Position numbers and translations under genes: made by a program
Shown here: piece by piece, positions 3,384 to 26,298 of the stretch
Layout of the letters: every line of letters begins with the position of its first letter
Position numbering within the stretch: the stretch's first letter is position 1
IMG/VR virus record: IMGVR_UViG_3300045988_009838
Span: 1-26,298 of that record
DNA from: a virus
Length of the DNA stretch: 26,298 bases
Strand: one strand, 5' to 3'
Notes under the pieces: model-generated
Database searches by the model: none
The model's input: only the letters and a program-made list of their open reading frames with translations
What the model was told of the DNA's origin: nothing

Positions 3384-4316
3384 CTAGACTCCTACTGGTT
3401 GGATAGCTGCAAATGCTTCATCATTCGGAATCGCTACGGCAATTTCAAAGATTGCACGGAGTGCTTGCATGTCTTGTTCGAACAAGTGAACATCACCAGA
3501 ATCAAGTGTGCCATCGTTTTGAACTTTAGACAAAGTAGCTTGATCTGCGATTTTAAGACGCAAGTTAGTACCGTTTGGAATACCGTACACCAAACCGTTG
3601 AAGTTACCAGTAATCAATGTACCTGCCGGATAAGTTTGCCCGTCTTGCAATTGAAGTTGTGAATATGGAAGACCATCAAGCTCACCGATTGCGTTAGGGT
3701 TAGCTGGTTTAGTGAAGATGTGTTGACCACCGTTCACATTGTCAACGATTCCACGGAGTGTGCGGTTGATTGTGCGGTGTCCTACAAATGCGTTAGGTTC
3801 TTTTTCCGACTTGTCCTCAACGTCATAGATGTTATTGAGGTTGATGTCCCCAGATACAATGTTTTGAGCACGTTTAGCAGACGCCAAAACGTTAGCACCG
3901 AATGGATTGTTATACAAACCAAGGAATGCTGCCCCGTCAATTTTCTTGTTAAACAAATCGACAATCTTGTCCTTGATTGATTCGAAGTAATCAGTCCAAG
4001 TGTAGTTGAGGACTTCTTCTGTAACTGGCAAGATAACTGACAATTTACGAGATTCAAGAACGTAAGATTTAGTTTGTACTTTTGCAGTACCGATTTTTTG
4101 ACCTTCACCTACGAAATAAGCGTCTGTCAATTGACCAACTTCTACGCCTTTACGAACCATTTTGCCGTCCATTTCAACTTTTTGACCAAGCTGAATGACT
4201 CTTGAAGTTTTTACAAGTTCGTCAGTGAATAGATCAGTGATGTATTCTGATGTAATCTCTTTACCAAGAGAATCAGACAAAAGGACTGTGTCCGGATTGA
4301 ATTTTTGTTGAGCCAT
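3384..4316 (-). CDS. Major capsid protein
   Basis: 310-aa ORF following the scaffold gene; size and position; RBS AAAGAAAGGAGAGCGC before the ATG. Confidence 0.8.
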   Translation of the reverse strand: MAQQKFNPDTVLLSDSLGKEITSEYITDLFTDELVKTSRVIQLGQKVEMDGKMVRKGVEVGQLTDAYFVGEGQKIGTAKVQTKSYVLESRKLSVILPVTEEVLNYTWTDYFESIKDKIVDLFNKKIDGAAFLGLYNNPFGANVLASAKRAQNIVSGDINLNNIYDVEDKSEKEPNAFVGHRTINRTLRGIVDNVNGGQHIFTKPANPNAIGELDGLPYSQLQLQDGQTYPAGTLITGNFNGLVYGIPNGTNLRLKIADQATLSKVQNDGTLDSGDVHLFEQDMQALRAIFEIAVAIPNDEAFAAIQPVGV

Positions 4317-4334
4317 GCGCTCTCCTTTCTTTGA

Positions 4335-4886
4335 TTAGAAATTAGTGATTTTGGCTTTATCAAACTTGTCTTTTCCACGGTGAGAACGCCCTTCCTCTCC
4401 ACCGCTTGTGCGAGGTGGTAGAGCTTTGGCTTCCTCTCGTTTCTGCAAGTTTAAGATATTAGCCATGTTTGAAACAGCTAGCTTAGTAGCTTCTTCATCG
4501 CCTTTAACAACAAACGCGAGCGTTGACTCATTGACAGGCACGCCTTGAGCTTCGAGCTCTTTAATAGCGATGTCCTGCATTTGACGTTGAGCGATTTGGG
4601 CTTGAAGTGCTGCAATTGTGCTCTGGGCTTCTTCGAATTCTTTATCCCGCTGTTTCTGTTGCAGCTCTTGAAGTTCTTCTTCACTCATTTTAGCTTTAGC
4701 AACGGCTTCCTCGATTTGAGATTGAATACCGGTTTGCATATCAGCAATTTCAAGAGTATGTTTCTCTTCCATCTGTTTGAGTCTACGCTGCATTTCAGCA
4801 ACTGACACCATCTTCTCCTCTTTTTCTGGTTGGCTAGCTTCAACCTCTTGAGGATCCTCAACTGTTTCAAGTTCTTTTTCTGCCAT
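4335..4886 (-). CDS. Scaffolding protein
   Basis: 183 aa, strongly acidic and coiled-coil-like (E/Q/K rich), immediately upstream of the capsid gene. Confidence 0.7.
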   Translation of the reverse strand: MAEKELETVEDPQEVEASQPEKEEKMVSVAEMQRRLKQMEEKHTLEIADMQTGIQSQIEEAVAKAKMSEEELQELQQKQRDKEFEEAQSTIAALQAQIAQRQMQDIAIKELEAQGVPVNESTLAFVVKGDEEATKLAVSNMANILNLQKREEAKALPPRTSGGEEGRSHRGKDKFDKAKITNF

Positions 4887-4972
4887 GATAGGCTCCTTTC
4901 TTTACGCTTTTACGAGCAACCCCCTCGAACTCATGCAGCTTTTAACGTCCTCAGCACGGTCTGGACAAAGGG

Positions 4973-5938
4973 TTATTCACCCCAAACACCGTTAACAGCT
5001 TCTTCATCAAGAGTGCTGCCACCAGCTTTATATTCCATTTTGATGTGGCCATACGCTGAACAGCGACAGTTAGGGTGCATTGGGTACATGTTAACCCCTT
5101 TCTCTGCCTTGTTAATTGGTATGGCTTTTCTATCTAGGGGCTTACAGATATCGCAAGCTCCACTTTCAGCAACATAGATTAAATGCGTGAAGTCATTCTC
5201 TTTCAGTATCATCAATTCTGTATCAGCATTAATGCGAGCTATTTCGGTCTTGAGCAATCGCTGGGCGTTGGCTTGGCTTGTGTTATATTTCTTAGCTAAT
5301 CGCTGCCGTTCCTGCTTAAAACCGTCCATGTCGGTGAAGATACGTGCTAACGAGCTAAACACATCCTTCTGCATGTTTCCATGAAGTCCATTCCTGCCCC
5401 AAACTCTGCAACTAAAATTCTGCCCGTAGAAATCAGCGTCTAAAATTGCTCTCATACGACTTACCGCATTGACAGCAGAATTGCCCAGAATACCCGCTTG
5501 GCGCTTAAATTCAGCTAAGTATTCACTCTCACGCGCCTCGTCGAAGACTTCGTTAACGTCTGATATAAGACTAGCTATTTCAAGCCTTAATTCTGCTTTG
5601 AGTAGCTCCAACCGACTGACTTTCATTTTTAAGTTAAACATTCTTAGCCATTGGTTAGTGCCGTGTGAGAAATCCTTCTCGACTACTGCCTTTCTTGCTC
5701 GGTCTCTATACTCAGTGACATCGAACTCATTAGCTCGCTTCATAGCTTCGGCACGGCTTAGCCCCTCTTTGTCAGCGTAGCGCATGTAAAAGCCGTTTAT
5801 TTGGCTCTGCATACGGTTATATGACGCTTGATAAAGCTCTTTTAAGACCTTGTCACGCTCTATGTCACGCTTGATTAGGTCTGATTGCGCTTTTCTCTCG
5901 GCATTGTAGCGTTCATTATTCGTCATCATCCTCAACAC
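4973..5938 (-). CDS. Minor head protein, MuF / SPP1 gp7 family
   Basis: 321 aa directly after the portal gene; C-terminal CDIC...HPNCRCS cysteine motif typical of MuF-like head morphogenesis proteins. The true start may be one of the ATGs 9-12 nt downstream of 5938. Confidence 0.75.
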   Translation of the reverse strand: MLRMMTNNERYNAERKAQSDLIKRDIERDKVLKELYQASYNRMQSQINGFYMRYADKEGLSRAEAMKRANEFDVTEYRDRARKAVVEKDFSHGTNQWLRMFNLKMKVSRLELLKAELRLEIASLISDVNEVFDEARESEYLAEFKRQAGILGNSAVNAVSRMRAILDADFYGQNFSCRVWGRNGLHGNMQKDVFSSLARIFTDMDGFKQERQRLAKKYNTSQANAQRLLKTEIARINADTELMILKENDFTHLIYVAESGACDICKPLDRKAIPINKAEKGVNMYPMHPNCRCSAYGHIKMEYKAGGSTLDEEAVNGVWGE

Positions 5939-9660: not shown

Positions 9661-9683
9661 TGTTCTGTCCTCTTTGGTATAAT
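9655..9683 (+). promoter_or_regulatory. Plus-strand extended -10 promoter (TAGCAT-17-TGgTATAAT) overlapping the arpU start codon
   Basis: TGGTATAAT at 9675-9683; the weak -35 hexamer at 9655-9660 contains the CAT of the arpU ATG. Confidence 0.4.
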
Positions 9684-9776
9684 AGTAGTGTTGATTTCCA
9701 AAGAGTGCCGGCCATCGTGTCGGTCTTTTTTTGTTTGGCCCAAAAAACATTAAGAGGTTTTATAAGGGAAAGATTA

Positions 9777-10404: not shown

Positions 10405-11115
10405 CTACACGCCTAACATGTAGGCTTTATATAGGGCTTTTCTGACCGTAATTTTATCCCTGCCTGTCTTGCCTTTAGTTCGGTATTCAAGCATAATGCG
10501 GTCAGCATCGTCATCCAGCCTATCGGGCCAATCGTAGTTATTGAAGACATAATCAACGATTTTGCTGAATAAGTCTCGTGACAGCATCCCTTCCATTTGA
10601 ATCACTTTCAATGGCGTTAAGGCAGCTTTCTCCGCATAGCAACAATTGAGGGCGTTTTGGGTTTTGTTAGCTTGCTTCTTATCGCAACCTTTAATGTCTC
10701 TGATGTACTTGTTTAGGTCGTTAGGGTGTTCCTTGCGTAGTTCTTCCACTTCCTCACGGAATCGCTTAAACAAGTCCTCTGGCAGTCCTGCGTTGGTTTT
10801 CTCCAAAACTGGGCGCGTGGTTTTGCCCCTTGTGTAGTGTTGTGACAGATATGCTTGTAGGTCGTTGAATAGTCCGTCGGAAATGATGCCTTTTAGTCTG
10901 TCAACTGTTTGAGGTGAGATCCTCGCACGCTCCACCACTGCACTATTAAACGCTTGATATATGATGCGAGCTTGTAACTCATCGCACTGTTTCACATCTT
11001 GGAAAAATTGCTTATAAGAGCCTTTTTTGTGTGCTTTTCTCAGTGCCGCATGTTCACTGACCAGCCGTTGATATAATTCTGGTGTCAGTCCGGAATATTG
11101 GTAGGTTTTACTCAT
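10405..11115 (-). CDS. Hypothetical early protein built from two tandem ~100-aa repeats
   Basis: 236-aa ORF. Residues ~9-96 and ~110-197 align (GLxxxL(Y/F)xR...LRKxH...D(V/I)KxCD..QA...A(L/I)(S/T)P..V...G(I/M)(I/L)S..LF). Confidence 0.6.
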   Translation of the reverse strand: MSKTYQYSGLTPELYQRLVSEHAALRKAHKKGSYKQFFQDVKQCDELQARIIYQAFNSAVVERARISPQTVDRLKGIISDGLFNDLQAYLSQHYTRGKTTRPVLEKTNAGLPEDLFKRFREEVEELRKEHPNDLNKYIRDIKGCDKKQANKTQNALNCCYAEKAALTPLKVIQMEGMLSRDLFSKIVDYVFNNYDWPDRLDDDADRIMLEYRTKGKTGRDKITVRKALYKAYMLGV

Positions 11116-18449: not shown

Positions 18450-20192
18450 TTATTTACCGTTGTATTTCTTGAAACCAAGAGTTAGAGCAGTGATTCCTGC
18501 AGCGATGACTACCAATCCTAAAGTGCTAGCAATTCCTTCTTTCTCACCAGTGTTAGGGAGAACACCGCCGTAAACGGCTGTATTTGGTGTCTCTTTGCTT
18601 GCTGGTGCGAAGTTATAAGATACTGTGGCAGATTGTGCCACTTTTTCTTTAGGCTTGTTAGGTACTTCTTTCGGTGTCACTGGTTTTTCTGGTGTTGGTT
18701 CCACTGGAATATGCAACTCTGGCAAATCAAGGATAGGGGCATCATTCGGAACTACTCCCCCTTCGAATGGTGGCAACTCACGGACTTCTGGAATTCCGGG
18801 AATACCTCCTTGGAATTCAGGTTTGTAATGGATAGGCGCTTCATTTGGCACTGTCCCGCCATTCCATTCTGGTTTATCCAAAACTGGAGCGTCGTTTGGT
18901 ACAGTTCCAATCGGTTCAGTGTACTCAGGCAATTCTCGCACCTCTGGGATTCCGGGGATACCGCCTTTAAATTCCGGTTTTTCGTACTTAGGTGCATCGT
19001 GTGGCACCTCAAAAGTTGGCTCTGGTTTGTTCTCGCCAGAAGCATCCCCACGCCCGCCGACAAGTTGAATCTTCTGATATGAAACAGCACCATCATTTTC
19101 AGCTTTCAATTCAATCTTGTTAGTCGGGTTTGTACTGTCTTTAACAGCATTTACAAGCTTAGTCTTGTAGTACAAGTAAATCATGTGGTCTAGTCTATCC
19201 ATTTTGATTTCAAATCCATGCTCAGATTTTGAGATAGACTTAACTAAGTCCATAGCTGAACCTTTGTCAATCCAAGGGTCTAAACTTTCAATATTTTTCA
19301 CTTCAAAGTAGTTATCAACCAACTTTTGGTTTTCTGACATTTCGTCAATGATTGTTACATAGTTTAGTACACGTTTTGCATAGTTAACTCGTGCTGTCCA
19401 ATTGATCACTGTAGGGTCTTCTTTGTCTTGAAATCCCCATTTAGCGATAAGTTCATCTTTGCCAATTACTTGCTCCGAACCTACATTGACTGTTACCACA
19501 GTGCCGTTAAAGTTGACATTTACTGGCTTGCCAGATACAACTTTATCTGTCCAACTTGCATCTAGTTTTAAGTTCATGATCTTATTCAAAGGGTGTGATT
19601 TGAAATAGTCATTGAATACAGTTGTCACCTTGTTAGTGGTAGCATCCGCTGTAGCTTTACCAACTACAGCTTTATCAGGATTGTGGACGTCAAACTCATA
19701 GGAAGTTTGAAATTTTACTTCTTCAGGTAAGTCAAAAGTAACCTTATCCCCCTCATTTACCGGCACGTCGTCCGGAATTTTAATGTTTTTATACTCAACC
19801 TCGAACGGGCTATACTTTCCATTCGGGAAAGTAACCTCAACGTTTGGGTTTTCAACGTTGAATGTGTCTCCCGTTTTAGTCACTGTAGTAGGTGCCGCTG
19901 GTGTTTCTGCAATCGGTTGAGCTTCGACTGGTGCTGGTGGAGTAAATACTGGTGTTTCCACTGGTGCCACTGTTTCAGACGGTGTCACTGTAATATTCCC
20001 GGCATTGTCAGCGGTATAGACATTAGACACCGCTGGTTGTGTGTCTGCCACTGGTTGAGTGGTTTCGTCTGCTGACACTGCCCCAGCTCCAATCAATAGA
20101 GCTGTAGCTAGTGCCAATGTGCCACAAAGTCCGTAGGCTTTAGTTTTAACGTAGCTAGGTTTTGAAGTTGTTTGAGTGTTGAAAGATTTCAT
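18450..20192 (-). CDS. LPXTG-anchored surface adhesin (MSCRAMM/collagen-binding-like A region, Pro-rich repeats)
   Basis: The track ORF is trimmed to the ATG at 20192 (RBS AAGGAG). Signal peptide MKSFNTQTTSKPSYVKTKAYGLCGTLALATALLIGAGAVSA. TVFNDYF and INWTARVNY motifs resemble adhesin N2/N3 folds. LPNTG at 18546-18560 is followed by a TM segment and a KKYNGK tail. Confidence 0.85.
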   Translation of the reverse strand: MKSFNTQTTSKPSYVKTKAYGLCGTLALATALLIGAGAVSADETTQPVADTQPAVSNVYTADNAGNITVTPSETVAPVETPVFTPPAPVEAQPIAETPAAPTTVTKTGDTFNVENPNVEVTFPNGKYSPFEVEYKNIKIPDDVPVNEGDKVTFDLPEEVKFQTSYEFDVHNPDKAVVGKATADATTNKVTTVFNDYFKSHPLNKIMNLKLDASWTDKVVSGKPVNVNFNGTVVTVNVGSEQVIGKDELIAKWGFQDKEDPTVINWTARVNYAKRVLNYVTIIDEMSENQKLVDNYFEVKNIESLDPWIDKGSAMDLVKSISKSEHGFEIKMDRLDHMIYLYYKTKLVNAVKDSTNPTNKIELKAENDGAVSYQKIQLVGGRGDASGENKPEPTFEVPHDAPKYEKPEFKGGIPGIPEVRELPEYTEPIGTVPNDAPVLDKPEWNGGTVPNEAPIHYKPEFQGGIPGIPEVRELPPFEGGVVPNDAPILDLPELHIPVEPTPEKPVTPKEVPNKPKEKVAQSATVSYNFAPASKETPNTAVYGGVLPNTGEKEGIASTLGLVVIAAGITALTLGFKKYNGK

Positions 20193-20200
20193 GGTATAAT
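20172..20200 (+). promoter_or_regulatory. Near-consensus plus-strand promoter TTGAGT-17-TGgTATAAT inside/abutting the LPXTG start codon
   Basis: -35 at 20172-20177; TG at 20192-20193 (shared with the CATG of the minus-strand start); -10 at 20195-20200. Confidence 0.55.
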
Positions 20201-20223
20201 CTCCTTGTAAATGTTTTTTTCTT

Positions 20224-20250
20224 GCATGGGCCCTAACCCATGCTTTTTTT
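20224..20250 (+). terminator. Plus-strand intrinsic terminator about 20 nt downstream of that promoter
   Basis: GCATGGG-ccctaa-CCCATGC followed by TTTTTTT. In the minus orientation the hairpin is followed by an A-rich tract. Confidence 0.6.
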
Positions 20251-20273
20251 AGTGCTTCAATCCGCACCCATCG

Positions 20274-21322: not shown

Positions 21323-21463
21323 TTATGCTCCTTTCTGGTAGATGCTTGCCACGATATCGTAGTAGCTATGCCCTGCTGGTATCGTGTACTTAGTTAGATC
21401 ATCAACTCTGGAACCATCTGCCATAATGTTGATTATGACTGGTTCCCATTTCTTTCGTTTCAT
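21323..21463 (-). CDS. Possible 46-aa early ORF (MKRKKWEPVIINIMADGSRVDDLTKYTIPAGHSYYDIVASIYQKGA)
   Basis: Own translation; below the track cut-off; AAGG lies 11 nt upstream of the ATG. Confidence 0.45.
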   Translation of the reverse strand: MKRKKWEPVIINIMADGSRVDDLTKYTIPAGHSYYDIVASIYQKGA

Positions 21464-21471
21464 GATATAAT
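21443..21471 (+). promoter_or_regulatory. Plus-strand extended -10 promoter TTCCCA-17-TGaTATAAT abutting the start codon of 21323..21463
   Basis: TG at 21463-21464 is shared with the CATG of the minus-strand start; -10 at 21466-21471. Confidence 0.45.
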
Positions 21472-21672: not shown

Positions 21673-22425
21673 TCAATCGTCTTGTTCGATGATTGGCAGG
21701 ATGCCGTTAACTTTTAGCAATTCATACAAGAACAAGCGCCCTTTTTGTGTCCAAGTCGTTGTCATATTGACTTGAGCTTGACCGTTCTTATCCTTGTAAT
21801 CAAATGTCGAACTATCGACATAGCCCTTACCCATGTGTTTCTTATACAAAATCCATTGACTGTTGACCTTGTGTTGAACACCTAGATCATGCAAGGTTGC
21901 ATTGAATTTCTTGGCACTCATGCCGTAATCTGCCGCAATCTGGGTAACACGCACCGCCCCTTTACTTTCTAGAATGATGTCGAAGTAGCGTGCTTGCTCT
22001 TGCGCCAAGGCCAACTCAGCCTCTAGTTTCACCACTTTAGCCCGTTCGTCTTTAAGAGCTTGAAAGGCTGCAATGGCAAGGTCAGGATCATTAAGTAGTT
22101 GTTCTGTAGCATACATGCCATGTTTGCGTATGGTTGGCAAAACCTCTGATGTGACCCAACGTTTAAACTCCTTGGCTTGTGGTAGTTTGCTTGACAAAAT
22201 TAGGGAGTATAAACCAGACTCATTGATGATAATCATCTCTCTGTCTTGACCTGAGGTACCGAAACGGTACTTCAGCTTATCTTCTTCATCTACGTGTCTA
22301 TTGACATCTCGACTACCATTTTGGTACCCCAAAATCCCAGCCACATCCTTACCTACAAAGTAAGGCTCATTGTTAATAGTTACTGTTCGGACATCTTGTC
22401 CGTGGAAGTTGAAAATTTCATTCAT
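21673..22425 (-). CDS. Antirepressor (Bro-N domain plus KilAC/ANT-like C-terminal domain)
   Basis: The track ORF is trimmed to the ATG at 22425 (RBS AAAGAAAGGAAAC). FNFHGQDVRTVTINNEPYFVGKDVAGILGY is a typical Bro-N motif. Confidence 0.8.
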   Translation of the reverse strand: MNEIFNFHGQDVRTVTINNEPYFVGKDVAGILGYQNGSRDVNRHVDEEDKLKYRFGTSGQDREMIIINESGLYSLILSSKLPQAKEFKRWVTSEVLPTIRKHGMYATEQLLNDPDLAIAAFQALKDERAKVVKLEAELALAQEQARYFDIILESKGAVRVTQIAADYGMSAKKFNATLHDLGVQHKVNSQWILYKKHMGKGYVDSSTFDYKDKNGQAQVNMTTTWTQKGRLFLYELLKVNGILPIIEQDD

Positions 22426-22449
22426 AGTGTTTCCTTTCTTTGATATAAT
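22421..22449 (+). promoter_or_regulatory. Plus-strand promoter TTCATA-17-TGaTATAAT for the membrane-protein gene; its -35 contains the antirepressor start codon
   Basis: -35 at 22421-22426 (CAT 22423-22425 is the antirepressor ATG); TG at 22441-22442; -10 at 22444-22449. Confidence 0.55.
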
Positions 22450-22473
22450 AGTTAATAAAAACGAGGTTTTGAC

Positions 22474-22896
22474 ATGAAGAATAAATCTGAAATATCTGCT
22501 TTTCTGATGTTCGTTGGGTTGCTGTACATTGAATTCCACTGTATAACACCAGATAGCCATTCAGCCTTGACTAGGCTGGCCGACATCAATTGGACGTATC
22601 TATGCCTAGTGATTGGTATCGCTTTATTCATTTCGATGTTAGCGTTAAGCTATATCCATGACATCCTACTCTTTTTTAAACTTGAAAAAGACGGTGATAT
22701 AACTTATAGCTTTGTCGTCACTTTGCCTATCTTTGGAATCCTCGTTTTGAGAAACTGCTTGATTGTCCTGTCTGATACTCAATTTGGAAATTTAATGTCC
22801 TTTGTTAGCGTCCCTATCTTCGGTGCTTTCTGGTCGCTTTCCAAACGAACGCTCAAAGCGAACAGGCAGCAAGATGAGAACTCCGACAAGCATTGA
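22474..22896 (+). CDS. Four-TM membrane protein, counter-oriented moron (possible superinfection exclusion/immunity function)
   Basis: 140-aa ORF; GAGG 8 nt before the ATG; four hydrophobic segments; own promoter and terminator. The minus strand has no ORF between 22426 and 22791. Confidence 0.6.
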   Translation: MKNKSEISAFLMFVGLLYIEFHCITPDSHSALTRLADINWTYLCLVIGIALFISMLALSYIHDILLFFKLEKDGDITYSFVVTLPIFGILVLRNCLIVLSDTQFGNLMSFVSVPIFGAFWSLSKRTLKANRQQDENSDKH

Positions 22897-22986
22897 GAAT
22901 GTAAAAAACATATAGGTCGTAAAGTCCCACTCTGGGATTGGACGGCCTTTTTGCATGAACTCGATAAAATCGTGGATGTGATTCAT
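22792..22986 (-). CDS. Small single-TM protein downstream of cro
   Basis: 64 aa; strong RBS GAAAGGGG 6 nt upstream; 20 nt after the cro stop. Its 3' 105 nt overlap the convergent plus-strand gene. Confidence 0.5.
   Translation of the reverse strand: MNHIHDFIEFMQKGRPIPEWDFTTYMFFTFSMLVGVLILLPVRFERSFGKRPESTEDRDANKGH
22914..22953 (+). terminator. Plus-strand terminator after the membrane-protein gene
   Basis: AGGTCGT-aaag-TCCCA-ctc-TGGGA-ttgg-ACGGCCT followed by TTTTG. One U-G pair makes it specific to the plus-sense RNA. Confidence 0.45.
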
Positions 22987-23006
22987 TTTTTGCCCCTTTC
23001 ATAATT

Positions 23007-23243
23007 TTAATTATTTAGTTCAAGTTCTTGAACTTCATAGTTAAAAAAATATTCAACAATCTCTTTTTTTGAGATTTCTAATAATTTAGCCGCTTTCACA
23101 ATTTCGTCTTGTTGCCACTTTGCTTTCCCGTTGATTTTAAACGAAATCGTTGTTGGAGTTATGCCGATGGCTTCTGCGAAATTTTCTTGCGTTCCGTATT
23201 TTTCTTTGATACGACCTTTTAATTTAGCATAGTCAAATCTCAT
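23007..23243 (-). CDS. Cro-like XRE-family HTH regulator
   Basis: 78 aa; HTH TQENFAEAIGITPTTISFKINGK; divergent from the repressor gene across an operator-rich region. Confidence 0.85.
   Translation of the reverse strand: MRFDYAKLKGRIKEKYGTQENFAEAIGITPTTISFKINGKAKWQQDEIVKAAKLLEISKKEIVEYFFNYEVQELELNN
23018..23033. promoter_or_regulatory. Operator copy O3 GTTCAAGTTCTTGAAC inside the 3' end of cro
   Basis: Perfect GTTCAA-N4-TTGAAC palindrome, the same architecture as the two intergenic copies. Confidence 0.6.
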
Positions 23244-24855: not shown

Positions 24856-26298
24856 ATGGCAACACATAAAGTCGCTATCTATGTCCGAGTATCGACCACA
24901 TCGCAAGTTGATGAAGGCTATTCTATCGACGAGCAAAAGGCAAAGTTGACAAGCTACTGTGAGATTAAGGACTGGAATGTTTATGAGATATACACAGACG
25001 GCGGTTTCTCTGGGTCTAACACGGAACGCCCTGCCCTAGAGCAGTTAATAAGGGATGCAAAGAGAAAACTGTTTGATACTGTTCTAGTGTATAAGCTAGA
25101 CCGTTTGAGCCGCAGTCAGAAAGATACACTCTATCTGATTGAAGATGTCTTTCTGGAGAATGATATAGAATTTGTCAGCTTGCTCGAAAACTTTGACACC
25201 TCAACGCCATTCGGTAAGGCAATGATTGGGCTCCTCAGTGTGTTTGCCCAGCTAGAAAGAGAACAAATCAAGGAGCGTATGCAGCTAGGCAAACTTGGAC
25301 GGGCAAAGTCCGGCAAGGCCATGCAGTGGTCAAAGACTTCCTACGGCTACGACTATGTCAAAGAGACCGGCACGCTATCAATCAATCCATATCAAGCTTT
25401 AATCGTCCGAAAAATGTTCAAATGGTATTTATCAGGTATGTCGATAACCAAGCTCAGAGACGCCCTCAATGAGCAATATGGGCAAGATAAAGAGTGGAAC
25501 TATAGAACGGTGCGGGTTATCCTCTCAAACCCGGTATATTGTGGATACAATCAGTTTAAAGGGCAGATATTCCCCGGCACTCATGAGCCTATCATATCAG
25601 AGGACGACTTTAACAAGACGCAAGAGGAAATCAAAACAAGACAAAGGACAGCCGCCCAGCGTTTCAATCCAAGGCCATTTCAAGCTAAATACATGCTTTC
25701 TGGTATAGCTCAATGCGGTTACTGTTCAGCCCCTCTTGCTATCAAGCTAGGCATGAAACGAAAAGACGGCACGCGCTTAGTCAAATATGAGTGTAAGCAG
25801 CGACACCCAAGGAAGACCAAGGGCGTGACTGTTTACAACAACAATGAAAAGTGTGATTCTGGGTTTTATTTCAAAGACGATATAGAGCACTTCGTCCTAA
25901 CTGAAATCAGCAAACTACAAACTGATTCAGATTATATCGACAAGCTATTTTCAAACACTGACAAAGAGACGATAGACCGGGACAGCTACCAGAAACAGAT
26001 TGATAATCTAACCGCTAAAATTAGCAGGCTTAATGACTTGTATATTGATGACCGGATTTCACTGGAAGAATTACAAAAGAGGTCAAGCGACTTCATGGCA
26101 GAAAGAACAGCACTTGAAAAAGAGCTAGACGCTGACACCTCTCTCAAAGCTGTAGAGCGAAAGAAAGATATTAGACGGGTGCTTGACACCAAGGACATCT
26201 TCACGCTTGATTACGATCAGCAGAAAGCCATAGCACGCGCCTTGATAAGCAAGGTTAGAGTTACTAGTGAATCCATCGTTATTTTATGGAAATTATAG
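24856..26298 (+). CDS. Large serine recombinase (prophage integrase), complete
   Basis: 480 aa. Resolvase catalytic N-terminus VAIYVRVSTTSQ and YKLDRLSRS, a recombinase domain, a Cys-rich zinc ribbon (CGYCSAPL...YECKQ) and a coiled-coil C-terminus. The TAG stop is the last codon of the window. Confidence 0.9.
   Translation: MATHKVAIYVRVSTTSQVDEGYSIDEQKAKLTSYCEIKDWNVYEIYTDGGFSGSNTERPALEQLIRDAKRKLFDTVLVYKLDRLSRSQKDTLYLIEDVFLENDIEFVSLLENFDTSTPFGKAMIGLLSVFAQLEREQIKERMQLGKLGRAKSGKAMQWSKTSYGYDYVKETGTLSINPYQALIVRKMFKWYLSGMSITKLRDALNEQYGQDKEWNYRTVRVILSNPVYCGYNQFKGQIFPGTHEPIISEDDFNKTQEEIKTRQRTAAQRFNPRPFQAKYMLSGIAQCGYCSAPLAIKLGMKRKDGTRLVKYECKQRHPRKTKGVTVYNNNEKCDSGFYFKDDIEHFVLTEISKLQTDSDYIDKLFSNTDKETIDRDSYQKQIDNLTAKISRLNDLYIDDRISLEELQKRSSDFMAERTALEKELDADTSLKAVERKKDIRRVLDTKDIFTLDYDQQKAIARALISKVRVTSESIVILWKL

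What the first reader, a model, noticed from the sequence alone, without database searches (positions are those of the whole stretch)
22421..22953. Self-contained counter-oriented membrane-protein moron wedged between cro and the antirepressor, with 105-nt convergent ORF overlap
The only protein-coding plus-strand unit inside the minus-strand lytic region has its own promoter, whose -35 contains the antirepressor start codon. It also has an RBS, a 140-aa four-TM ORF and a plus-specific terminator at 22914-22953 lying inside the convergent 64-aa ORF 22792..22986. On the minus strand 22426-22791 has no ORF, so the early transcript crosses 366 nt that is purely antisense to this gene. The arrangement predicts expression in the lysogen (cro promoter repressed) and head-on transcriptional interference with antirepressor expression. 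The geometry recalls lambda P_RE reading antisense through cro, but here transcription is stopped before cro. The protein is a candidate for superinfection exclusion, immunity or abortive infection. No family was recognised by eye.
Basis: partly seen in the sequence, partly recalled or inferred. Interest (0 to 1): 0.62.

Follow-up and report, generated by a model that had tools for sequence, protein, structure and literature searches.

The report
Backward membrane gene overlapping small early gene
A Streptococcus salivarius-type prophage carries, just after its cro gene, a backward-facing gene for a four-helix membrane protein of an undescribed family that overlaps tail-to-tail with a real small early membrane-protein gene; this is probably a lysogen-expressed accessory ("moron") cassette, and its function is untested.

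Summary
A TG-extended -10 promoter (22421-22449) has a -35 that contains the antirepressor start codon. It is followed by a GAGG ribosome-binding site, a 140-aa four-helix membrane ORF (22474-22896), and a hairpin terminator that folds well only on the plus strand (22914-22953).

The 140-aa gene is real. It has 84 full-length relatives, and pN/pS is 0.23. Its family is tiny: 16 hits among 1.84 billion representative proteins, found only in Streptococcaceae, with no match in any family, defence or structure library searched.

The new result is that the convergent 64-aa ORF is also a real gene.
- It is open in all 23 distinct relatives.
- A Shine-Dalgarno sequence precedes it behind four different cro types.
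- pN/pS is 0.11 in its non-overlapping part.
- It persists in two loci that lack ORF140.

Inside the 105-nt overlap, selection passes from one frame to the other. Every distant family member (23-38% identical) also converges on a small one-helix ORF (combined p about 2e-5). Other phages carry other backward genes in the same slot.

Function is inferred only: a lysogen-expressed membrane moron, possibly for phage exclusion, coupled by antisense to the early operon. The scan noted the same cassette in another genome.

The parts
22421..22449 (+). Promoter of ORF140: -35 TTCATA (contains the antirepressor start codon as CAT at 22423-22425), 17-nt spacer (holds the complement of the antirepressor Shine-Dalgarno), TG-extended -10 TGATATAAT
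   Evidence: 10 of 12 positions, TG present; sequence. TTGA(T/C)ATAAT is conserved in all 23 distinct relatives. The same layout, SD complement plus TGnTATAAT, sits in front of every distant family member.
22464..22467 (+). Shine-Dalgarno GAGG of ORF140, 6 nt before the ATG
   Evidence: conserved in the alignment.
22474..22896 (+). ORF140: four-helix membrane protein of an undescribed family. Residues S30, N94 and P114 are invariant; H62 and Q103 are nearly invariant.
   Evidence: ORF; 84 relatives at 64-99% identity; pN/pS 0.23; 16 hits among 1.84e9 representatives; conserved residues; model pLDDT 69.6, helices 2-22, 40-67, 77-98, 101-137; hydropathy.
22914..22953 (+). Plus-strand intrinsic terminator: a two-tier hairpin containing G-U pairs, then a T-run. 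It lies inside codons 12-25 of ORF64.
   Evidence: -24.8 kcal/mol, z -4.6 on plus; -13.1, z -0.4 on minus. (99.6% of cells paired in 16 distinct sequences; changes are wobble only; no double compensation). In most relatives the T-run that would serve the minus strand is broken.
22792..22986 (-). ORF64: small early membrane protein with a 26-aa N-terminal part, one hydrophobic helix (about residues 22-45) and a charged tail. It is the second gene after cro.
   Evidence: Open in 23 of 23 distinct relatives. pN/pS 0.107 in the non-overlap part, with variable columns 14/7/1 at codon positions 3/1/2. 34 relatives, some annotated by NCBI as hypothetical proteins. Present without ORF140 in L030 and L039.
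22993..23000 (-). Shine-Dalgarno GAAAGGGG of ORF64, 6 nt before its ATG
   Evidence: AAAGGAG or GAAAGGA sits at the same place behind other cro types.
22792..22896 (.). 105-nt convergent coding overlap in which codon position 2 faces position 2, and selection passes from one frame to the other
   Evidence: In 22792-22851, pN/pS is 0.13 in the ORF140 frame and 0.74 in the ORF64 frame. In 22852-22893 it is 0.63 and 0.28 respectively.
22426..22791 (-). 366-nt stretch of the early (minus) transcript with no conserved ORF, wholly antisense to ORF140
   Evidence: only unconserved ORFs of 38-59 aa; pN/pS 0.98 in the ORF64 frame.
23007..23243 (-). cro-like regulator (DUF739/HTH_3), first gene of the early operon (context)
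   Evidence: PF05339, E 2.8e-26. The P_R-like promoter TTGACA-17-TAAAAT runs 23316 to 23288 on the minus strand.
21673..22425 (-). Antirepressor (Bro-N plus KilAC), the next early gene. Its start codon and SD lie under the ORF140 promoter (context).
   Evidence: PF02498, PF03374; phrog_130, E 1.2e-95.

Best explanation
This is a mobile two-gene membrane cassette in a 'moron slot' just downstream of cro in streptococcal temperate phages.

Shown:
- ORF140 and ORF64 are both genuine protein-coding genes and overlap tail-to-tail.
- ORF140 has its own sigma-A-type extended -10 promoter, built over the SD and start codon of the next early gene.
- ORF140 has a strand-specific terminator inside ORF64.
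- The block moves between phages that differ in repressor, cro and antirepressor modules.

Inferred:
- No copy of the switch operator lies at the ORF140 promoter. The nearest copy, per an earlier scan note that I did not check, is at 23018-23033.
- The same promoter also accompanies the cassette in phages of other immunity types. ORF140 is therefore probably transcribed in the lysogen while P_R is repressed.
- It would put a four-helix protein (N and C termini inside) into the cell membrane as an accessory function, most likely exclusion or abortion of incoming phages, as with other small prophage membrane proteins.
- Its roughly 500-nt mRNA is antisense to about 160 nt of ORF64. The promoter also fires head-on against P_R read-through. 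In the lysogen this would suppress leaky expression of ORF64 and of the gene downstream (here the antirepressor).
- After induction, strong P_R transcription crosses all of ORF140 in antisense. It would shut ORF140 down while making Cro and the small membrane protein ORF64.
For: - Anatomy.
- ORF140 is real and conserved: 84 relatives; pN/pS 0.23.
- ORF64 is real: searches (pN/pS 0.107, clear period-3 pattern; SD kept behind four cro types), and (it survives without ORF140).
- Selection hand-over within the overlap.
- Cassette boundaries fall at about 22415-22432 and about 22989-23010, while the flanks differ.
- Distant family members (S. suis type, L033-L036) all have the same promoter layout and a convergent overlapping small one-helix ORF with an SD. 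Avoidance of the codons that would close the antisense frame gives combined p = 1.9e-5.
- The same slot in Javan535, Javan536 and L030 carries unrelated backward genes that converge on small early ORFs.
- Counter-oriented extended -10 promoters are enriched: 5 of 5 on the plus strand, 1.17 expected.
- In S. pyogenes lysogens, 19 of 81 intergenic and antisense ncRNAs and 44 of the strain-variable mapped promoters lie in prophages (PMC6431027). This fits such promoters being active in lysogens.
Against:
- There is no similarity to any known exclusion, abortive-infection or defence protein. PADLOC gave nothing. Pfam, PHROGs and NCBIfam gave only sub-threshold noise. PDB sequence and fold searches gave nothing with E below 0.001.
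- GC content does not mark ORF140 as foreign: 0.40 against 0.416 for the window.
- The terminator shows no double compensatory changes, so its conservation could come from the ORF64 protein sequence alone. L039 keeps the hairpin with no convergent gene directly behind it.
- ORF64 occurs without ORF140, so the two need not act together.
Confidence: 0.45

Rival explanations
1. A toxin-antidote (type I toxin-antitoxin-like or Esc-like) pair. ORF64 would be a membrane-active small protein, harmful or host-arresting. It would be held in check by the convergent ORF140 transcript through RNA duplex formation over about 160 nt, and possibly by the ORF140 protein itself. Alternatively, ORF64 would be the phage's own antidote against an abortive ORF140.
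For: - ORF64 has the build of type I toxins: 64 aa, one hydrophobic helix and a charged tail.
- As recalled from the literature, the convergent 3' overlap of about 100 nt or more matches txpA/RatA, bsrG/SR4 and fst/RNAII.
- Every member of the four-helix family in six lineages faces such a small ORF.
- L030 lost ORF140 but kept exactly the overlapped remnant, the terminator and another backward promoter and gene.
Against: - The antisense RNA is an mRNA for a protein under purifying selection, not a small non-coding RNA.
- ORF64 has no promoter of its own. It sits 20 nt behind cro in the early operon.
- In L039, ORF64 stands with a co-oriented gene 2 nt behind it and no convergent partner.
- The one-helix look of the small ORFs is partly forced by the genetic code, because the antisense of a K/N/D/E-rich tail reads as F/I/L/V.
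Confidence: 0.2
2. ORF140 is an accessory membrane protein with another role, such as host physiology or lysogenic conversion, or a role late in infection. The overlap and antisense geometry would then be only a by-product of tight packing at a recombination hot spot, with no regulatory meaning.
For: - The slot accepts unrelated cargo, including soluble proteins.
- Cassette ends coincide with short shared SD/start/promoter sequences that favour recombination. In S. suis Javan569 a roughly 40-bp repeat lies at both ends.
- There is no defence-family signal.
Against: - Overlaps of 72-219 nt recur in all six lineages, with non-random avoidance of antisense stops (p = 1.9e-5).
- The terminator is strand-specific.
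- The promoter is placed exactly over the next gene's translation start in all lineages.
Confidence: 0.2
3. ORF64 is not a functional protein. It would be an accidental open frame created when the cassette was inserted behind an SD and ATG, and kept open only because that antisense frame rarely has stops.
For: - The frame is the one in which only TTA, CTA and TCA give antisense stops.
- In S. suis the small ORF starts with the same SD plus ATGAACGAAATT as the antirepressor, as if duplicated.
- Gene callers often omit it.
Against: - pN/pS is 0.107 with 14/7/1 variable columns at codon positions 3/1/2 in the 90 nt that no other gene covers.
- pN/pS is 0.28 over its hydrophobic helix, against 0.63 in the ORF140 frame.
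- It is intact at 73-76% identity in loci without ORF140.
- An SD is kept behind four cro types.
Confidence: 0.08

Closest known systems
Prophage morons encoding small membrane exclusion proteins (P22 SieA, T4 Imm, HK97 gp15, lactococcal Sie2009, S. thermophilus TP-J34 Ltp). Recalled from the literature; Ltp and SieA papers were seen only as titles and abstracts.
   Same: A small membrane protein gene in a temperate phage with its own promoter and terminator, set apart from the lytic operons, variable between otherwise related phages, and expected to be expressed from the prophage.
   Different: There is no sequence or fold similarity. The gene lies inside the early lytic operon, between cro and the antirepressor, whereas Sie2009 and Ltp lie between the integrase and the repressor. 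It overlaps a second gene tail-to-tail. No exclusion phenotype has been tested.
Lambda RexB (144-aa, four-helix membrane partner of RexA; recalled from the literature)
   Same: Size (140-144 aa), four membrane helices, prophage-encoded, and expected lysogen expression opposite to the early lytic transcription.
   Different: No Pfam match of any kind at E up to 1, which would include a RexB model if the library holds one. No RexA-like partner is present. It is not co-transcribed with the repressor.
Lambda OOP RNA against cII (recalled from the literature)
   Same: A leftward transcript with its own promoter converges on, and pairs with, the 3' part of the gene that follows cro in the P_R operon.
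   Different: Here the antisense transcript is a 500-nt mRNA for a conserved protein. The target is a small membrane protein, not a transcription activator.
P22/lambda sieB-esc with the sas antisense RNA (recalled from the literature)
   Same: A prophage membrane abortive-exclusion gene whose output is switched by antisense transcription tied to the phage's own early expression, with a small product that protects the phage itself.
   Different: In P22, esc is an in-frame part of sieB and sas is a small RNA inside it. Here there are two separate convergent genes, and no homology.
Type I toxin-antitoxin systems of Firmicutes prophages (txpA/RatA, bsrG/SR4, yonT/SR6, fst/RNAII; recalled from the literature)
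   Same: A small one-helix hydrophobic protein whose mRNA is overlapped at its 3' end by a convergent transcript, often sharing a terminator region, in prophage DNA.
   Different: The partner RNA codes for a conserved protein. The small gene has no promoter of its own and lies in the early operon. Toxicity is untested.
Tiny counter-oriented promoter-terminator units of this same prophage and of S. pyogenes prophages (earlier scan note e1-4043484; PMC6431027)
   Same: The same promoter design, TGnTATAAT laid over the SD and start of an early gene and firing against the early operon. It occurs five times in the window, always on the plus strand. One example is 9675-9740, followed by a hairpin and a T-run.
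   Different: Those units run straight into a terminator and predict RNAs of about 45 nt. This one encloses a 140-aa gene.

Membership tests
Type I toxin-antitoxin system | Small (under about 60-70 aa) hydrophobic membrane peptide as the toxin | tested here: met
   ORF64 is 64 aa with one hydrophobic segment at residues 22-45 and a charged tail.
Type I toxin-antitoxin system | The antitoxin is a small non-coding antisense RNA | tested here: not met
   The convergent transcript carries a 140-aa ORF under purifying selection (pN/pS 0.23) with 84 relatives.
Type I toxin-antitoxin system | The toxin gene has its own promoter | tested here: not met
   ORF64 starts 20 nt after the cro stop, and no minus-strand promoter was found between them.
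Type I toxin-antitoxin system | The small protein is toxic, and the RNA neutralises it | not testable with these tools
   This needs expression experiments.
Superinfection-exclusion / abortive-infection membrane proteins (Sie2009, Ltp, SieA, SieB, Imm, RexB) | Sequence or profile similarity to a described family | tested here: not met
   Pfam, PHROGs, PADLOC and NCBIfam gave no hit at or near threshold, either for ORF140 or for 14 relatives. A PDB profile search gave E of 0.27 or worse.
Superinfection-exclusion / abortive-infection membrane proteins (Sie2009, Ltp, SieA, SieB, Imm, RexB) | Fold similarity to a known exclusion protein | tested here: inconclusive
   The model is of moderate quality (pLDDT 69.6, pTM 0.60). 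No Foldseek match has E below 0.001 in BFVD or PDB. The best is an unnamed viral protein, A0A1S5SAJ3, with E 0.046 and TM 0.48.
Superinfection-exclusion / abortive-infection membrane proteins (Sie2009, Ltp, SieA, SieB, Imm, RexB) | Expressed from the prophage, and blocks or aborts incoming phage | not testable with these tools
The phenotype needs plating assays.
Moron (independent transcription unit inserted between phage genes) | Own promoter and terminator flanking a gene that some closely related phages lack | tested here: met
   Promoter and terminator. Javan534, 535, 536 and 539 share the cro and switch region but lack the cassette. Javan535 and Javan536 were inspected and carry other genes in the slot.
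Moron (independent transcription unit inserted between phage genes) | Base composition different from the surrounding genome | tested here: not met
   GC is 0.402 for ORF140 against 0.416 for the window.
Holin / antiholin | Similarity to holin families and a position in the lysis module | tested here: not met
   Only one relative gave a PHROG holin hit, at E 0.017. The gene lies in the early region beside cro, not beside an endolysin.

The most novel reading that the evidence does not exclude
The four-helix protein and the small one-helix protein may form a conserved, antisense-coupled two-state membrane module. The lysogen would make only the four-helix protein, which aborts or excludes incoming phage. 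The phage's own early transcription would silence that gene by antisense and supply the small protein as antidote or partner. Such a self/non-self exclusion switch, built from two genuinely overlapping convergent genes, would have been kept across streptococcal phage lineages down to about 25% protein identity.
Probability: 0.15. Interest if true: 0.75.

Novelty: new variant of a known kind. Interest (0 to 1): 0.5.

Why it matters
Prophage accessory genes expressed in lysogens are a main source of phage resistance in dairy and oral streptococci. This is an unannotated family. In the four S. suis phage GenBank records that contain it, no gene is called at that place.

It also gives a clean natural example of two real genes overlapping tail-to-tail by more than 100 nt. 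Each gene's dispensable tail lies over the other's constrained part, and a terminator is written inside coding sequence.

If the antisense coupling is functional, it would show how a phage ties an accessory gene's on/off state to its lysis-lysogeny switch without any repressor site.

Tried and rejected
- First structure model, from the shallow alignment A1: pLDDT 52, unusable. The second model, with S. suis-type sequences added, reached pLDDT 69.6 but brought no informative fold match.
- Searches of viral contigs with four distant family members (P0119, P0120, P0124, P0125) found nothing.
- tblastn of P0120 against phage records found nothing. P0125 and P0127 hit only the same four S. suis phages.
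- NCBIfam 'DxFTY motif-containing membrane protein' matched 5 relatives at up to 22.6 bits against a cut-off of 60. I rejected it as noise.
- The 163-aa backward membrane protein in L039 looked motif-similar by eye, but hhalign gave a probability of 0.8%, so I rejected it.
- The S. thermophilus M17PTZA496 prophage paper has nothing on this gene. Two literature searches found no description of the cassette.
- A test for covariation in the terminator gave only one-sided wobble changes, no better than shuffles.
- GC content as a sign of foreign origin showed no difference.
- P0118, a 51-aa partial relative of ORF64, is not on record in the contig index.
- The pN/pS values are pooled pairwise Nei-Gojobori estimates with no correction for phylogeny. 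The ratios between frames are robust, but the absolute values are rough.
Full report
**What the window is.** It is a 26.3-kb IMG/VR viral record of a Streptococcus salivarius/thermophilus-type temperate phage.
- Plus strand: serine recombinase (24856-26298), a PH/SHOCT protein, an ImmA-type M78 peptidase and a cI-like HTH repressor.
- Minus strand: a DUF739 cro (23007-23243), a Bro-N/KilAC antirepressor (21673-22425) and the rest of the phage.
- The finding lies between cro and the antirepressor.

**Check of the observation.** Everything described is there.
- The promoter scan finds TTCATA-17-TATAAT with TG before the -10 at 22421-22449. CAT at 22423-22425 is the antirepressor start codon. The complement of that gene's Shine-Dalgarno fills the spacer.
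- GAGG lies 6 nt before the ATG at 22474. The ORF runs to 22896 and encodes 140 aa.
- Hydropathy and AlphaFold2 both give four long hydrophobic helices.
- The hairpin and T-run at 22914-22953 fold at -24.8 kcal/mol (z = -4.6) as plus-strand RNA, but only -13.1 kcal/mol (z = -0.4) as minus-strand RNA, because two stem positions are G-U pairs.
- The 64-aa minus ORF (22792-22986) overlaps ORF140 by 105 nt.
- ORF140 is the only plus-strand ORF of at least 90 aa in the lytic region that is not a shadow of a longer minus-strand ORF.

**ORF140 is a real gene of a very small family.**
- It has 84 relatives, mostly full length and 79-95% identical, in oral and gut metagenomes and in S. salivarius and S. 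thermophilus genomes.
- In 27 related loci (23 distinct sequences), the part not shared with ORF64 has pN/pS of 0.23 in its own frame and 0.98 in the ORF64 frame. Variable columns number 59, 25 and 15 at codon positions 3, 1 and 2.
- A profile search of 1.84 billion representative proteins gave only 16 hits. Besides the close relatives, nine of them are proteins of 100-175 aa with the same helix pattern, 23-38% identical where aligned.
- The family was found in 6 of 401 Streptococcaceae genomes. It was found in none of 400 other Lactobacillales genomes.
- Among 50,697 phage records it appears only in four S. suis Javan phages, where the place carries no annotation.
- No Pfam, PHROG, PADLOC, NCBIfam or PDB match is meaningful. 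The second structure model (pLDDT 69.6, pTM 0.60) has no Foldseek hit with E below 0.001.
- Conserved polar residues are S30, H62, N94 (in helix 3), Q103 and P114.

**ORF64 is also a real gene.**
- It is open in all 23 distinct relatives, at 62-64 aa.
- A Shine-Dalgarno (AAAGGAG, GAAAGGA or GAAAGGGG) precedes its ATG behind four different cro genes. The block of homology ends just there.
- In the 90 nt that ORF140 does not cover (22897-22986), pN/pS is 0.107 in the ORF64 frame. Variable columns number 14, 7 and 1 at codon positions 3, 1 and 2. The plus frame gives 1.87.
- There are 34 relatives, and NCBI has called some of them hypothetical proteins.
- Two loci keep an ORF64 homologue without ORF140:
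  - L030 is an S. thermophilus prophage in which only the overlapped 3' remnant of ORF140 and the hairpin are left. Another backward 71-aa gene sits there with a similar promoter.
  - L039 has a co-oriented gene following 2 nt later.
- These two copies are intact despite 12 non-synonymous and 8 synonymous codon differences between them.

**Selection inside the overlap.** The two frames face each other with codon position 2 on position 2.
- In 22792-22851, ORF140 helix 4 faces the ORF64 tail. pN/pS is 0.13 for ORF140 and 0.74 for ORF64.
- In 22852-22893, the ORF140 tail faces the ORF64 helix. pN/pS is 0.63 for ORF140 and 0.28 for ORF64.
- Each gene's poorly constrained C-terminal tail is therefore written over the other's constrained segment. 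Little sequence is doubly constrained, which explains how the overlap can persist.
- These are pooled pairwise estimates without tree correction. The contrast between frames is the result, not the absolute values.

**The arrangement is older than this clade.** I compared the S. suis type (L001, L032) and four other lineages (L033-L036), all about 25-35% identical to ORF140.
- In every case the four-helix gene is counter-oriented inside an early region.
- Each has cctttct...TGnTATAAT laid over the SD and start of the next early gene. That gene is an antirepressor, a cro-like gene, dnaB or an HTH gene, depending on the locus.
- Each converges on a small ORF with an SD, one hydrophobic helix and a charged tail. 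The overlap is 72-219 nt, always in the same relative frame.
- That frame is the one with fewest antisense stops, and the antisense of a K/N/D/E-rich tail reads as hydrophobic residues. Part of this pattern is therefore forced by the genetic code.
- Even so, the runs of Leu and Ser codons that avoid TTA, CTA and TCA at the 3' ends are longer than each gene's own codon usage predicts. Per-lineage p values range from 0.63 down to 5e-5, and Fisher's combined p is 1.9e-5.
- The small proteins are not demonstrably homologous to one another. ORF64 and the S. suis ORF are 24% identical, pairwise E 0.017.

**A moron slot.**
- Phages with nearly the same cro (Javan536 at 91% and Javan535 at 86% DNA identity) lack the cassette. 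In the same place they carry other backward ORFs that converge on other small early ORFs. In Javan535, one of these is an unannotated 110-aa ORF facing a 43-aa one-helix gene.
- In S. suis Javan569, a roughly 40-bp repeat lies at both ends of the cassette and in front of the next backward gene. The repeat reads as SD plus ATGAACGAAATT on one strand and as an extended -10 on the other. It looks like a recombination joint.
- TGNTATAAT occurs five times in the window, always on the plus strand, against 1.17 expected. At least one other copy (9675) runs straight into a hairpin and T-run. That matches the tiny antisense units an earlier follow-up described.

**Terminator.** In 16 distinct sequences, 99.6% of stem cells pair. 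The only changes are U-G to C-G or U-A, U-A to U-G, and G-U to A-U. All are compatible with a plus-strand RNA hairpin. No position changes on both sides, and the shuffles do as well. In most relatives the T-run that could serve the minus strand is broken. The hairpin is therefore conserved and strand-specific in energy. Its conservation cannot be separated from that of the peptide QKGRPIPEWDFTTY, which it encodes.

**How it most likely works.** The steps above are shown; what follows is inferred.
- The ORF140 promoter has no operator of the switch type nearby. It also travels with the cassette between phages of different immunity. It should therefore be active in the lysogen.
- It would give an RNA of about 500 nt, from about 22456 to about 22953, and a four-helix inner-membrane protein.
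- That RNA is antisense to about 160 of the 195 nt of ORF64. Its promoter sits on the translation start of the next early gene. Together these would oppose any leak from P_R.
- After induction, P_R transcripts carry cro and ORF64 and then run 366 nt in antisense through ORF140 before reaching the antirepressor. This should silence ORF140 by collision and RNA pairing.
- The protein's role is unknown. From its build and placement I favour exclusion or abortion of incoming phages (confidence 0.45).
- The rivals are: a toxin-antidote reading centred on ORF64 (0.2); a non-defence accessory role with an incidental geometry (0.2); and ORF64 being non-functional (0.08).

**Comparison with known systems.** The cassette works like a moron. 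Its geometry resembles lambda OOP/cII, P22 sieB/sas and the type I toxin-antitoxin pairs of Firmicutes prophages. I recall all of these from the literature and did not test them here. It fails membership of type I TA on two tested features: the partner RNA is coding, and the small gene has no promoter of its own. It fails membership of every described exclusion family by sequence. PMC6431027 reports 19 of 81 intergenic and antisense ncRNAs in S. pyogenes prophages, along with 44 of the strain-variable mapped promoters. This fits counter-oriented prophage promoters being active in lysogens, but that paper does not concern this gene.

**Verdict.** The finding is an undescribed protein family in a conserved convergent-overlap cassette, which I class as a new variant of a known kind (prophage moron). 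Interest is 0.5. An earlier first-stage note (e1-4041908) records the same cassette in another genome.

Noticed in passing
window 9675-9740, 11069-11077, 20192-20200, 21463-21471, 22441-22449: TGNTATAAT occurs five times, always on the plus strand (against the lytic strand), with 1.17 expected by chance. The copy at 9675 is followed about 30 nt later by a GC-rich hairpin and T7, like the tiny antisense units described in an earlier follow-up.
   Followed up: partly
L001 (Streptococcus phage Javan569, MK448808.1) 3880-4560: A 175-aa member of the four-helix family (3929-4456 +) and a convergent 57-aa ORF (4325-4498 -) are not annotated in this record. The family member is also unannotated in Javan563, Javan567 and Javan590. 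A roughly 40-bp repeat (aatttcgttcataaaattcctttctaatttggtataat) lies at both ends of the cassette and in front of the next backward gene (4555-4986 +).
   Followed up: partly
L043 (Streptococcus phage Javan535, MK448799.1) 2053-2505: In the same slot after cro, an unannotated backward 110-aa ORF with a C-terminal hydrophobic helix (2053-2385 +) converges on an annotated 43-aa one-helix gene (2374-2505 -), with a 12-nt overlap.
   Followed up: no
L030 3346-3495; L032 2747-3058; L033 925-1068; L044 2335-2514: Small early-region ORFs starting M(K/R)PK(R/H)YPY recur in several unrelated streptococcal prophage early regions. They appear to be an unnamed small protein family.
   Followed up: no
L039 990-1481 (-) and 842-1090 (+): Another backward 163-aa four-helix protein, not detectably related to ORF140 (hhalign probability 0.8%), also converges on and overlaps a small one-helix ORF of 82 aa.
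   Followed up: partly
L002-L007, for example L002 6502-8435: Prophages carrying the cassette sit next to a T2SSF-domain (comGB-like) gene, with a 480-aa serine recombinase at the junction. Several carry a Big_8/Collagen_bind adhesin gene in the early region, as this window does at 18450-20267.
   Followed up: no
window 23018-23033: An earlier first-reader note places a third perfect copy of the switch operator (GTTCAA-N4-TTGAAC) inside the 3' end of cro. The sequence read shows it there, about 30 bp upstream of the ORF64 start and about 65 bp beyond the plus-strand terminator. A repressor bound there could block transcription in both directions.
   Followed up: no
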